Part shown: one piece after another, positions 18,001 through 21,000 of the stretch | How positions within the stretch are numbered: the first letter of the stretch is position 1 | Layout: every line of letters starts with the position of its first letter | NCBI GenBank assembly: GCA_030264375.1 | Contig: JASCQW010000122.1 | Coordinates: 46,436,774-46,497,379 of the forward strand | DNA length: 60,606 nt | Direction of reading: 5' to 3' | Origin: Carcharhinus longimanus | Lineage: Eukaryota | Program-made: the position numbers

Positions 18001-21000
18001 CGAGTTTAGAAGGTGCTGCCGTATGAACCTTGGTGAGTTGCTGTCGCGCATCTCGTGGATGGTATAATTATCCTTGTGGGAGGGTGCAATGCATATTTAC
18101 CAGAATGATACCGTGGTAAAAAATTTTAATTGTGAGGGCAGGCTTAATAAATTTGGCATGAATGCCCCCGAGGTCACCATGGTCTAATCACAGTGCCGAG
18201 CAGGGTGAATGGAGAAGGGGCAGGGGGCGTGGGGTGGGGAATAGGAGGGGACAACTTTGTCAGTATTTAAGACTGAATCAAGCCTGATGCTCAATGCACA
18301 AGGCCTGCGTGGAATATGTAAAGAAGTTAAGGCTAGTTAGCAGGCAAGGCACAGTAAATCTCTTCACATAAAGGGTCATAGAGTTGTAAAGACCCATCTG
18401 GTTCACTAATGTCCTTTAGTGAAGGAAATCTGCCTTCCTCACCTGGTCTGGCCTACATGTGACTCAAGAGCCACAGCAATGTGGTTGACTCTTAAAATGC
18501 TCTCTAAAAATGGCCTAGCAAGCCATTCAGTTCATGGGTGACTAGGGATGGGCAATAAATGCTGGCCCAGTCAGCGACGCCCATGTCCCACGAGTGAATT
18601 AAAAAAAATAAGGCGACAGAAATGTAGAAGGAAGCTGACAGCAGAGTTCACTTAAAGAGAGACTGAACACTTCCCCAGCGAGAACGGATGGATTTGTATA
18701 GAGTATAGAACATAGAACACTACAGCACAAACAGGCCTTTGGGACCACAAGTTGCCGAATCATATCCCTACCTACCAGGCCTATCTATAACCCTCAATCC
18801 CATTAAATCCCTTGTACTCATCCAGAAGTCTCTTGAAAGACCCCAACGAGTTCACCTCCACCACCACCAATGGCAGCCAATTCCACTCACCCACCACCCT
18901 CCGAGTCTGCCCACTGTATTATCACTAGCCCTCCCTTCCAACTCCAACCCACAAACCACATCCCCCCCCCATCCCAAACGCCTATTACTGCCCATAAATA
19001 CCACCCCCCTTCCACCCACCCACCCAGCCCCATGCACTGGCAAACCTCGTCACCGCGTTCAAAAATCCTCTTGGTTGATGGTTGAGTGCGGGCGACCGAC
19101 ACGGGCACCTCTTTCGCACCCCCTCCTCCTCGGCAACGGCATCGCCCACCTCCCCCCCCCACCCCCCCCCCCCCCACCCCCCACCCCTGCGATCGGGGTC
19201 TTTACCTGCCGGCACAGTGAGGCACTGAGCCCGTTGTAGAGCGCTAGAATTCCGTCCGTCCGGACGACGCGTACAGCCATCCCTATCATCCTCAACTTCA
19301 CCTCCTGTTGGGTCTGTAGGTGGACCTGGCACAGGGAGAGAGCAGAAACAATCATCACTCACCCACCCAAGGGAAAGGGCAGTGAACTAACTGACCCTCT
19401 GTCACTAGGGGCAGGGGAGTTTACAAGATGGCAGCTCACCACCGCCTCCTCATGGGCAACTAGGGACGGGCAATAAATGCTGGTCAGCCAGCGACACCCG
19501 CGTCCCACGAATGAATGAAAGAAAAATGAAACATGTAGAGGGTTATGGGGAAAGAGCGGGGAGGGTGGGACTAACTGGAGATCTTTCAATGAGTCTATAA
19601 CAGGCACAATGGGCCTCCTTCTAGCTCAGTTGGATTCTGTGCANNNNNNNNNNNNNNNNNNNNNNNNNNNNNNNNNNNNNNNNNNNNNNNNNNNNNNNNN
19701 NNNNNNNNNNNNNNNNNNNNNNNNNNNNNNNNNNNNNNNNNNNCCTACGCCTGTCTGCACTCGGTTCAGGCAGTAGCCCAGAGATGACCACCTTGTCGGT
19801 TCTACTTTTTAATTCCATTCTCAGCTTCTCATATTCCCTCCCCAGATCCTCAGTCCGCACTTTTCCTACGTCGCCGGAACCCACATCTCCTGAATCCCCA
19901 AAGCCTGTCCACCATCCACAAGGCACAGGTCAGAAGCATGTTGGAAAACTCTCCACTTGCCTGGATGAGTGCAGTGCCAACAACATTCAAGAAGCTTGAC
20001 ACCATCCAGTATAAAGCAGCCCGCTTGATTGGCACCCCATCCACAAACATTCACTCTCTCCACCACCGAACAGAAGTGTGTACCATCGACAAGATGCCCT
20101 GCAAAAACTCAGCAAGGCTCCTTAGACAGCACATTCCAAATCCATGACCAGTACCATCTGGAAGGACAGGGACAGCAGATTGGTGGGAATACCATCAACT
20201 GGAAATTCTCTTCCAAGTCACTCACCATCCTAACTTGAAAATCCATCACTGTTTCTTCATTGCCACTGGGTCAAAATCCTGGACCTCCCTCCTGAACAGC
20301 ACTATGAGTATAGTTACATCCTAAGGACTGTAGCGGTTCAAGAAGCAACTCATTACTTCCTTCTCAAAGGCAATTAGGGACGGGCAATAAATGTGGATCT
20401 AGCCAGTGATGCCCACACCCCAAAAATTAATTTTAAAAAGTCCACAGTCCCTCTCCACAGGGACACACTTCAATAATGTGTCTGAAAACCTGAGGTGCAG
20501 ATTGGCAAACTCAAAGCTTAGGGATGCCAAAGTGTGCAAATGGATTCTGTGGACTTAAGCAACATGAACAATAGAATTTACCGGTACAAAACACTTCAGG
20601 GTAAGCTTCCTACTGCGTCCCTATTTAGGGTCACCTTGCCTGCTATCAATTGAATTGTGTAGCTCTCTAAAAAGAATGTCAGTCCCACTTACAAGTCCTG
20701 ACTCTCAGCAACAGAGGTAAACAGTGCATCCACCAAAGGATCAGGCGTCATTTGTTGCTTTATTTTCTGGGAACAGAAATGTATACTTTTTTCCAAAAGT
20801 AGACTCATGTGAACTTACAGGGTTTGAAGGCAAGTAAAACAACTTAAGTTTCACTGATTGTAAATATATCCAACAGAAAGCTATGGCAAACAGTTGCTAA
20901 GTTCAAGTTTTAACCGATGAGTGGCTCATTCATCCATCTCTGAGATTGCATTGTGACTCGCCTTGCCGATGGCTCCTGTGCAACCGTATTCTTATGACTG

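What the first reader, a model, noticed from the sequence alone, without database searches (positions are those of the whole stretch)
19140..19350. Orphan SLC25A10 exon, intact and frame-compatible, inside PCDH15
Seen: a 120-nt exon with a strong pyrimidine tract and CAG acceptor, a GTAAAG donor, downstream G-runs, no stops and retained CpGs. It lies on the same strand as PCDH15, in a GC-rich patch unlike the host intron. It is phase 0-0 and the host intron (between 22978 and 16201) is phase 0. Inclusion would add 40 residues of mitochondrial carrier sequence at the end of EC11, just before MAD12, without a frameshift. It keeps intronic flanks, so it is not a processed mRNA copy. There is no gap between it and the PCDH15 exon at 16201, but a 100-N gap lies about 320 nt away on the other side. 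Inference: exon shuffling in progress, or a local misassembly.
Basis: partly seen in the sequence, partly recalled or inferred. Interest (0 to 1): 0.8.

Follow-up and report, generated by a model that had tools for sequence, protein, structure and literature searches.

The report
Stray carrier exon, probably misassembled
A perfectly intact exon of a mitochondrial carrier gene sits inside an intron of the hearing gene PCDH15, but it lies at the ragged end of a contig in a gap-ridden draft assembly, so it is more likely a misplaced piece of another locus than exon shuffling caught in the act.

Summary
On the minus strand, 19206-19325 is an open 40-codon exon with a pyrimidine-rich CAG acceptor and a GTAAAG donor. 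It matches Pfam Mito_carr just above the curated cutoff. It lies in the phase-0 PCDH15 intron between the last cadherin-repeat exon (23193-22978) and the first MAD12 exon (16201-16113). No other carrier exon was found nearby.

The SLC25A10 name rests on my recall only. No open tool held vertebrate sequences.

The exon sits in a roughly 520-nt unique block that is the most CpG-dense stretch of the window. Retroelement fragments bound this block on both sides. A 100-N join lies 318 nt away. The window has 12 N runs, and 2 of its 5 100-N joins have duplicated flanks, which shows faulty joins here.

My best reading (about 0.62) is an assembly chimera: a small GC-rich piece of the true carrier locus attached to a contig end through repeats. 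The main rival (about 0.3) is a real, young insertion of an unspliced fragment, perhaps carried by the adjacent same-strand CR1-like tail.

Several points count against the artefact reading. There is no gap towards the exon at 16201. The bounding repeats are old. The window shows no shared long word apart from a G-run.

Only reads, PCR or another assembly can decide. Interest is low unless the linkage is confirmed.

The parts
19206..19325 (-). Orphan mitochondrial-carrier exon: 120 nt, 40 codons, phase 0-0. Covers the middle of the first carrier repeat.
   Evidence: Mito_carr 23.3 bits, cutoff 22.3, profile 32-73 of 96. (UCP2/UCP1 best solved relatives). (30 of 30 Atlas hits carry Mito_carr).
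19326..19350 (-). Acceptor: pyrimidine tract followed by CAG.
   Evidence: 17 of 20 pyrimidines at -23..-4. Sequence.
19200..19205 (-). Donor gtaaag following exonic CAG.
   Evidence: 7 of 9 consensus positions. Sequence.
19146..19187 (-). G-rich homopolymer-type run starting about 19 nt downstream of the donor.
   Evidence: tandem repeat rows 19145-19187. (12 GGG per 100 nt, top of 577 bins). (holds the only exact word of 23 nt shared with the rest of the window).
18906..19423 (-). Unique, GC- and CpG-rich block carrying the exon with 98 nt of upstream and 300 nt of downstream intron-like flank.
   Evidence: no other copy in the window except the G-run; 22 CpG in 19000-19299, and the 600-nt windows here are the maximum of 1025.
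18700..18925 (-). CR1-like LINE 3' tail, 5'-truncated, in the same orientation as the exon. Ends in a 7-nt tandem unit. The family name is recalled.
   Evidence: 80% over 200 nt to 16496-16694, inverted. (alignment of 4 copies in this intron). (18705-18719, period 7, 2.1 copies).
19424..19545 (+). 5'-truncated 3' fragment of a LINE/SINE family with an A-rich tail, antisense to the exon.
   Evidence: 75-87% to 21518-21577, 20345-20431, 18532-18608, 58407-58479. (families D1, D2).
18383..18608 (+). Fuller copy of the same LINE/SINE family. With the CR1-like tail, it is the zone where a chimeric join would lie.
19644..19743 (.). 100-N join, 318 nt upstream of the exon in the sense of the gene. 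Left as it is.
   Evidence: no flank duplication at this gap.
22978..23193 (-). PCDH15 exon, end of the last cadherin repeat. 216 nt, ends in phase 0.
   Evidence: 6eet_A 252-320, E 1e-28. (Cadherin profile 22-88 of 93).
16113..16201 (-). PCDH15 exon, start of MAD12. Begins in phase 0.
   Evidence: 6eet_A 322-347, E 2e-7. (PCDH15_12th profile 1-23 of 115).

Best explanation
The exon is a genuine exon of a mitochondrial carrier gene of this animal. By my recall it is the second coding exon of SLC25A10, the dicarboxylate carrier. Its position inside PCDH15 is most likely an assembly artefact.

The proposed sequence of events is this. A small GC-rich piece of the carrier locus assembled poorly at home: it is about 520 nt of unique sequence, bounded by retroelement fragments, and holds a G homopolymer-type run. 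During scaffolding or gap closing it was attached, through the repeats at 18383-18925, to the end of the contig that carries the PCDH15 MAD12 exons. A later scaffolding step then joined that contig end by 100 N to the contig holding the rest of the intron. On this reading nothing is spliced into PCDH15 and no biology follows.

Shown: the anatomy, the family, the host gene, the gap and repeat layout, and the faulty joins elsewhere in the window. Inferred: the chimeric join itself and its location.
For: 1. The local assembly is fragmentary. There are 12 N runs in 60.6 kb with sizes 10-554, five of them exactly 100.
2. 2 of the 5 100-N joins (54981, 56511) have duplicated flanks: 48 nt at 100% and 101 nt at 96%. 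0 of the 7 other N runs do. Joins of this kind are therefore demonstrably unreliable in this window.
3. The exon lies 318 nt from such a join, inside the last 0.3-1.2 kb of a contig.
4. The unique block 18906-19423 is bounded by interspersed repeats on both sides. 35% of this intron is covered by repeats that recur within the window, against 14% for the whole window.
5. The block looks like an undisturbed native locus. It has 40 open codons, both splice sites and 9 CpG in 120 nt. It is the CpG maximum of the window (29 per 600 nt against a median of 7, with 1025 windows examined). A neutral copy in a CpG-depleted intron (window CpG o/e 0.29) would be expected to lose these CpGs (established knowledge).
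6. GC reaches 0.77 in 19100-19199, next to a G-run. A similar run at 4949-4979 abuts a 10-N gap.
7. From passages of PMC9516821: GC-rich 5' parts of genes are often missing, fragmented or wrongly placed in short-read vertebrate assemblies.
8. No other carrier exon is present. 1 of 102 minus-strand ORFs of 24 aa or more in the intron hits Mito_carr. 0 of 150 flanking ORFs do. So this is an isolated scrap, not a nested gene.
Against: - No N separates the exon from the PCDH15 exon at 16201; 7905-19643 is gapless. A chimera therefore needs a seamless false join.
- The bounding repeats are old. Copies in the window are 72-87% identical.
- The longest exact word shared between 18300-19643 and the rest of the window is 23 nt, and it is low-complexity G-run sequence. 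The two flanking LINE/SINE tails share at most 16 nt. The window itself therefore shows no word long enough to explain a graph collapse. The genome-wide situation is unknown.
- The 19644 join does not show the flank duplication seen at two other joins.
- In the passage of PMC9516821 that I read, translocations were among the least frequent error types.
- The exon and the adjacent CR1-like tail share orientation, as a reverse-transcriptase-mediated real insertion would predict.
- No reads, no second assembly and no home locus could be examined.
Confidence: 0.62

Rival explanations
1. A real, young insertion of an unspliced fragment of the carrier gene (exon plus intron flanks) into the PCDH15 intron, sitting there as a silent passenger.

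The likeliest route is reverse transcription of pre-mRNA. Either it was primed at a CR1-like tail lying in the carrier gene's intron, so that the upstream flank was carried along, or the enzyme switched template from a CR1 RNA to the pre-mRNA. The alternative route is a templated patch at a double-strand break.
For: - Sequence is gapless from the exon to the PCDH15 exon at 16201.
- A CR1-like 3' tail ending in a 7-nt tandem unit lies directly downstream of the block, in the same orientation as the exon.
- The bounding repeats are too diverged within the window to explain a k-mer collapse.
- Insertions templated from intronic or intergenic transcripts are documented in humans at 25-30 per individual, both LINE-mediated and break-repair classes (PMC5110952, abstract and passages).
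- The retained CpGs and open frame fit a very recent event.
Against: - No target-site duplication or terminal repeat was found around the block. The 5' boundary may lie in or beyond the N run, so this is inconclusive.
- It requires a rare event to sit by coincidence 318 nt from one of 12 N runs. Being within 320 nt of any N run covers roughly 13% of the window (my arithmetic).
- It must be young enough to show no decay at all.
- Matching orientation has an even chance of arising without any link.
Confidence: 0.3
2. Exon shuffling in progress. This is a subset of the previous rival: the insertion is real and the exon is at least sometimes spliced between the EC11 and MAD12 exons. That would add 40 residues of carrier sequence to PCDH15 in frame.
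For: - The exon is on the same strand as the host gene and is phase 0-0 in a phase-0 intron.
- The acceptor has 17 of 20 pyrimidines. The host acceptors have 13 and 15 of 20.
- The donor matches 7 of 9 consensus positions. The upstream host donor matches 6 of 9.
- Dense G triplets follow the donor. By established knowledge these often act as intronic splicing enhancers.
Against: - No transcript data could be examined.
- The insert would place part of a membrane-carrier repeat at the EC11/MAD12 junction. By established knowledge of PCDH15 structure this is a compact, functionally important interface, so inclusion should be selected against.
- All the arguments against physical linkage apply first.
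Confidence: 0.05
3. Foreign DNA, meaning contamination from another organism, assembled into the scaffold.
For: The carrier exon is, by my recall, far closer to mammalian sequence than the host exons are. The host exon is identical at 46 of 69 aligned residues to the mammalian PCDH15 chain, by my count of the alignment.
Against: - The block is continuous with members of repeat families that recur elsewhere in this window at 72-87% identity. It therefore comes from this genome or a close relative.
- Carrier proteins are generally highly conserved (established knowledge).
- By recall the peptide differs from the human one at a few positions, so I do not take the stretch for human.
Confidence: 0.02
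4. A chance open frame that merely resembles a carrier.
For: An open 40-codon frame has P of about 0.23 at this composition. The Pfam score is only 1 bit above the cutoff.
Against: - Three independent searches point to the same family.
- The match ends exactly at AG and GT boundaries.
- Only 1 of 102 ORFs in the intron and 0 of 150 flanking ORFs hit the family.
- The carrier motif [DE]G-4x-[WYF]-[KRNS]-G occurs once in all six frames of the window, and it occurs here.
Confidence: 0.01

Closest known systems
Misplaced or chimeric small contigs in short-read vertebrate assemblies, especially GC-rich 5' gene parts (PMC9516821; listing and passages read)
   Same: A GC-rich, CpG-rich piece near the start of a gene. 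It lies next to a gap, is bounded by repeats, and sits in an assembly with many N runs and demonstrably faulty joins.
   Different: One side is joined without any gap to host sequence. The paper's passage ranks translocations among the rarest error types. No read-level evidence is available here.
Templated sequence insertions (TSIPs) from intronic or intergenic transcripts (PMC5110952; abstract and passages read)
   Same: A short stretch copied from a distant transcribed locus, with intron sequence retained, inserted apparently at random.
   Different: No target-site duplication, poly(A) or microhomology junction could be identified. One boundary is hidden by the N run. TSIPs are described in humans with LINE-1; here the neighbouring element is CR1-like.
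LINE-mediated transduction and template-switch chimeric retrocopies, the classical route to exon shuffling (recalled from the L1 literature; no paper read here)
   Same: A unique genomic fragment carrying an exon lies directly 5' of a 5'-truncated LINE tail in the same orientation.
   Different: The mechanism is unproven here. The LINE tail may simply be an ordinary old insertion in either locus. It is 80% identical to another copy in the same intron.
Mitochondrial carrier family, SLC25 (Pfam PF00153)
   Same: The 40 residues match the middle of one carrier repeat. They are closest to the uncoupling proteins among solved structures.
   Different: This is only 40 of roughly 300 residues. None of the other five helices and no other exon is present within the intron or within about 7 kb on either side.

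Membership tests
Mitochondrial carrier family (Pfam Mito_carr, PF00153) | Match to the repeat profile at or above the curated cutoff | tested here: met
   23.3 bits against a cutoff of 22.3, E 5.5e-5, profile 32-73 of 96. E 2e-5 for the longer ORF.
Mitochondrial carrier family (Pfam Mito_carr, PF00153) | Three tandem repeats of about 100 residues (six helices) | tested here: not met
   Only one 40-residue piece is present. 1 of 102 ORFs in the intron and 0 of 150 flanking ORFs match. It is a fragment of a member, not a gene.
Mitochondrial carrier family (Pfam Mito_carr, PF00153) | [DE]G-xxxx-[WYF]-[KR]-G motif after the matrix helix (motif recalled) | tested here: met
   DGILALYNG, with N in place of K/R, found with a pattern relaxed to [KRNS]. 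It is the only hit in six frames of the window.
SLC25A10 (dicarboxylate carrier) orthologue, second coding exon | Near-identity to vertebrate SLC25A10 over this exon, with the same exon boundaries | not testable with these tools
No open tool holds vertebrate carrier sequences. PDB has only UCP1/UCP2 and ADP/ATP carriers as relatives. A paper search for a 10-residue stretch found 0 papers.
PCDH15 (host gene) | Flanking exons match PCDH15 EC11 and MAD12 and are adjacent in the protein | tested here: met
   6eet_A 252-320 and 322-347. Cadherin 22-88 of 93, and PCDH15_12th 1-23, 24-83 and 84-115 of 115 on successive exons.
Exon shuffling / exonised insert | Same strand, symmetric phase matching the host intron, usable splice sites | tested here: met
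Exon shuffling / exonised insert | Physical linkage confirmed independently of the assembly | not testable with these tools
   No reads and no second assembly. The collections open here hold bacteria, archaea, phages, plasmids and E. coli only.
Exon shuffling / exonised insert | Chimeric transcripts across the new junctions | not testable with these tools
   No transcript data.
LINE-mediated co-mobilised fragment | Unique fragment abutting a LINE 3' tail in the same orientation, with the tail ending in its microsatellite | tested here: met
   (18705-18719, 7-nt unit, 2.1 copies).
LINE-mediated co-mobilised fragment | Target-site duplication at both ends | tested here: inconclusive
   One search found none within 18300-19643. 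The 5' end may lie in or beyond the N run.
Assembly chimera | Close to a contig end, boundaries in repeats, and other faulty joins nearby | tested here: met
   (318 nt from the 100-N run). (repeats on both sides). (2 of 5 100-N joins have duplicated flanks).
Assembly chimera | Discordant read pairs or a coverage break at the join, with the exon missing at its home locus | not testable with these tools
   No reads and no access to the rest of the assembly.

The most novel reading that the evidence does not exclude
The block is really there. On this reading a very young insertion of an unspliced carrier-gene fragment was carried in with, or captured at the 5' end of, a CR1-like element. It placed a splice-competent, frame-compatible cassette exon exactly at the EC11/MAD12 junction of PCDH15, and the exon is included in at least some transcripts. 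That would be exon shuffling observed at its first step in a cartilaginous fish. I put real insertion alone at about 0.3. The probability given below is for insertion plus inclusion.
Probability: 0.05. Interest if true: 0.65.

Novelty: not a real feature. Interest (0 to 1): 0.2.

Why it matters
If it is an artefact, the value is practical. Gene predictors could build a false PCDH15 isoform with a 40-residue insert, and could report the carrier gene as lacking an exon. The window also shows that its 100-N joins need checking.

If it is real, it would be a rare, datable example of the raw material of exon shuffling: an intact foreign exon, in frame, inside a gene under strong constraint. It would also offer a test of whether CR1-type elements can carry host exons as L1 does.

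Tried and rejected
- Whole-intron translation into Pfam failed because of stop codons. I replaced it with scans of stop-free ORFs.
- Nested or larger carrier gene: rejected. 1 of 102 intron ORFs and 0 of 150 flanking ORFs hit Mito_carr. For the second scan, 15 of 165 ORFs, those at 7905-9449, were dropped to fit the size cap. The carrier motif occurs once in six frames. The 6 hits of P-x-[DE]-x-x-[KR]-x-[KR] have no carrier context. The plus strand, and the window beyond 9172-30067, were screened by these motifs only.
- DNA-transposon capture: no terminal inverted repeats or target duplication around the block.
- Join at the G-run: considered and set aside, because CpG richness continues on both sides of it. 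There are 6 and 7 CpG per 100 nt at 19000-19199 and 9 at 19200-19299.
- Split repeat: I looked for a single repeat split by the block, which would have exposed a false insertion. The copies on the two sides are not collinear with other copies.
- Naming the subfamily by tools failed. The PDB holds no dicarboxylate carrier, the Atlas gives the family only, and a paper search for a 10-residue stretch found 0 papers.
- Literature link: the search for 'SLC25A10' plus 'PCDH15' found 1 paper, a stem-cell/psychiatry review judged unrelated from its title and not read. The search for SLC25A10 exon structure found 3 papers that looked unrelated from the listing.
- Not done: the joined spliced model (host exon + orphan exon + host exon) was not built, searched or folded. 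The exons were searched one by one.
- Not used: structure prediction, complex prediction and the genome-contig scan, which could not bear on the question.
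Full report
**Observation**

Read on the minus strand, 19206-19325 is a 120-nt exon-like unit. A pyrimidine tract (17 of 20 at -23..-4) and a CAG precede it. Forty open codons follow (VHLQTQQEVKLRMIGMAVRVVRTDGILALYNGLSASLCRQ), and then CAG|gtaaag, which matches 7 of 9 consensus positions. The first 100 intronic nt downstream hold 12 GGG triplets. Only 1 of 577 100-nt bins of the window reaches that number. 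The exon has 9 CpG. An open frame of this length is not remarkable in itself (P about 0.23). The family match is what makes it an exon.

**Family**

- Pfam Mito_carr scores 23.3 bits against a curated cutoff of 22.3 (E 5.5e-5), covering profile positions 32-73 of 96.
- Among solved structures the best relatives are UCP2 (E 7e-4) and UCP1. They align with residues 13-40.
- The protein Atlas returned 30 of 30 listed hits carrying Mito_carr, with a top score of 0.93.
- The carrier motif [DE]G-4x-[WYF]-[KRNS]-G occurs once in all six frames of the window, in this exon.

No tool open here holds vertebrate carriers, so it is untested. A paper search for a 10-residue stretch found nothing.

**Host gene**

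The exon 23193-22978 (-) matches PCDH15 chain 6eet_A residues 252-320 (E 1e-28). That is 46 of 69 aligned residues identical, by my count of the printed alignment. The exon starting at 16201 (-) matches residues 322-347 (E 2e-7). The two exons are therefore consecutive in the protein, and the intron between them is phase 0.

Pfam places the upstream exon at Cadherin profile positions 22-88 of 93. It places the downstream exon at positions 1-23 of the PCDH15_12th (MAD12) profile. The next two exons, at about 12.7 kb and 10.6 kb, cover positions 24-83 and 84-115.

I searched the exons one by one. I did not build, search or fold the joined model. I do not take the window for human. Its PCDH15 exons are only about two thirds identical to the mammalian chains, and its repeats form families of their own.

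**Is it alone?**

Yes, as far as I could test.
- Of 102 minus-strand stop-free ORFs of 24 aa or more in the intron, 1 hits Mito_carr and 1 hits Cadherin.
- Of 150 minus-strand ORFs of 30 aa or more in 9172-16184 and 23251-30067, 0 hit Mito_carr and 2 hit PCDH15_12th. 15 of 165 ORFs were dropped to fit the size cap.
- The rest of the window and the plus strand were screened by short motifs only.

**Surroundings**

In the sense of the gene, the layout is:
1. A LINE-like ORF at 19929-19744.
2. The 100-N run at 19743-19644.
3. About 120 nt with no copy in the window.
4. An antisense 5'-truncated LINE/SINE 3' fragment at 19545-19424.
5. 98 nt of unique sequence.
6. The exon.
7. 300 nt of unique, G-rich, CpG-rich sequence.
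8. A CR1-like tail in the same orientation at 18925-18700, ending in a 7-nt tandem unit.
9. About 90 nt of unique sequence.
10. A fuller LINE/SINE copy at 18608-18383.

The family names CR1-like and LINE/SINE are my recall. The calls show only that these stretches recur in the window at 72-87% identity.

The unique block is the CpG maximum of the window: 29 per 600 nt against a median of 7 over 1025 windows, with 22 CpG in 19000-19299. GC reaches 0.77 there.

**The assembly**

The window has 12 N runs of 10 to 554 nt, five of them exactly 100. At 2 of the 5 100-N joins the sequence before the gap is repeated after it: 48 nt at 100% and 101 nt at 96%. At the 7 other N runs, and at the join next to the exon, it is not. 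These are overlapping contig ends that were joined instead of merged, which shows that such joins are unreliable here.

The exon lies 318 nt from a join of this kind, at the very end of a contig. A G-run like the one beside the exon abuts the 10-N gap at 4939-4948.

**Weighing**

An artefact explains these facts together:
- the position at a contig end;
- the repeat boundaries;
- the undecayed state of a block sitting in an intron whose CpG o/e is 0.25-0.3;
- the isolation of one exon.

It also fits what is reported for short-read vertebrate assemblies. GC-rich 5' parts of genes tend to be lost, fragmented or wrongly placed (PMC9516821, passages read).

Against it:
- The sequence from the exon to the PCDH15 exon at 16201 has no gap.
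- The bounding repeats are old.
- The longest exact word that 18300-19643 shares with the rest of the window is a 23-nt low-complexity stretch. The two flanking LINE/SINE tails share only 16 nt.
- The passage I read in the same paper lists translocations among the rarest error types.
- A real mechanism exists. Templated insertions from intronic transcripts are known in humans (PMC5110952). The exon and the CR1-like tail next to it point the same way, as co-mobilisation or template switching would predict.
- No target-site duplication or inverted terminal repeat was found, but one boundary may be hidden by the N run.

**Verdict**

I put an assembly chimera at about 0.62, a real but silent young insertion at about 0.3, real with inclusion in PCDH15 mRNA at about 0.05, and contamination or chance at a few per cent together.

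These are judgements, not measurements. The deciding data are reads spanning 18300-20000, the state of the true carrier locus, a second assembly and RNA-seq junctions.

No paper in the searched library links the two genes in this way. One search found 1 paper, unrelated by its title and not read. One search found 0.

Noticed in passing
54933-55128 and 56410-56710: The 100-N runs at 54981-55080 and 56511-56610 are flanked by the same sequence on both sides (48 nt at 100%, 101 nt at 96%). These are overlapping contig ends that were joined rather than merged, and they create false short tandem duplications.
   Followed up: partly
4939-4979, 19146-19187, 22278-22320: Three G/C homopolymer-type runs of similar make-up. 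One abuts a 10-N gap directly. The one beside the exon holds the only 23-nt exact word that its neighbourhood shares with the rest of the window.
   Followed up: partly
16496-17631, 18700-18925: Four copies of one LINE-tail family lie in this single intron, two of them ending in 7-8-nt tandem units (16683-16698, 18705-18719). 35% of the intron is covered by repeats that recur within the window, against 14% for the whole window.
   Followed up: partly
19744-19929 (-): A 62-residue open frame abuts the 100-N run. By recall it looks like part of a LINE ORF. It gave no Pfam hit at E up to 0.1.
   Followed up: no
12631-12822 (-) and 10464-10685 (-): The remaining MAD12 exons of PCDH15 (PCDH15_12th profile 24-83 and 84-115 of 115). 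With the exon at 16201 they show the host gene is otherwise intact and collinear here.
   Followed up: yes
19062-19358 (-): The carrier reading frame stays open for 11 codons before the acceptor and 48 codons beyond the donor, through the G-run (99 aa stop to stop). Failure to use the donor would therefore not meet a stop until 19062.
   Followed up: no
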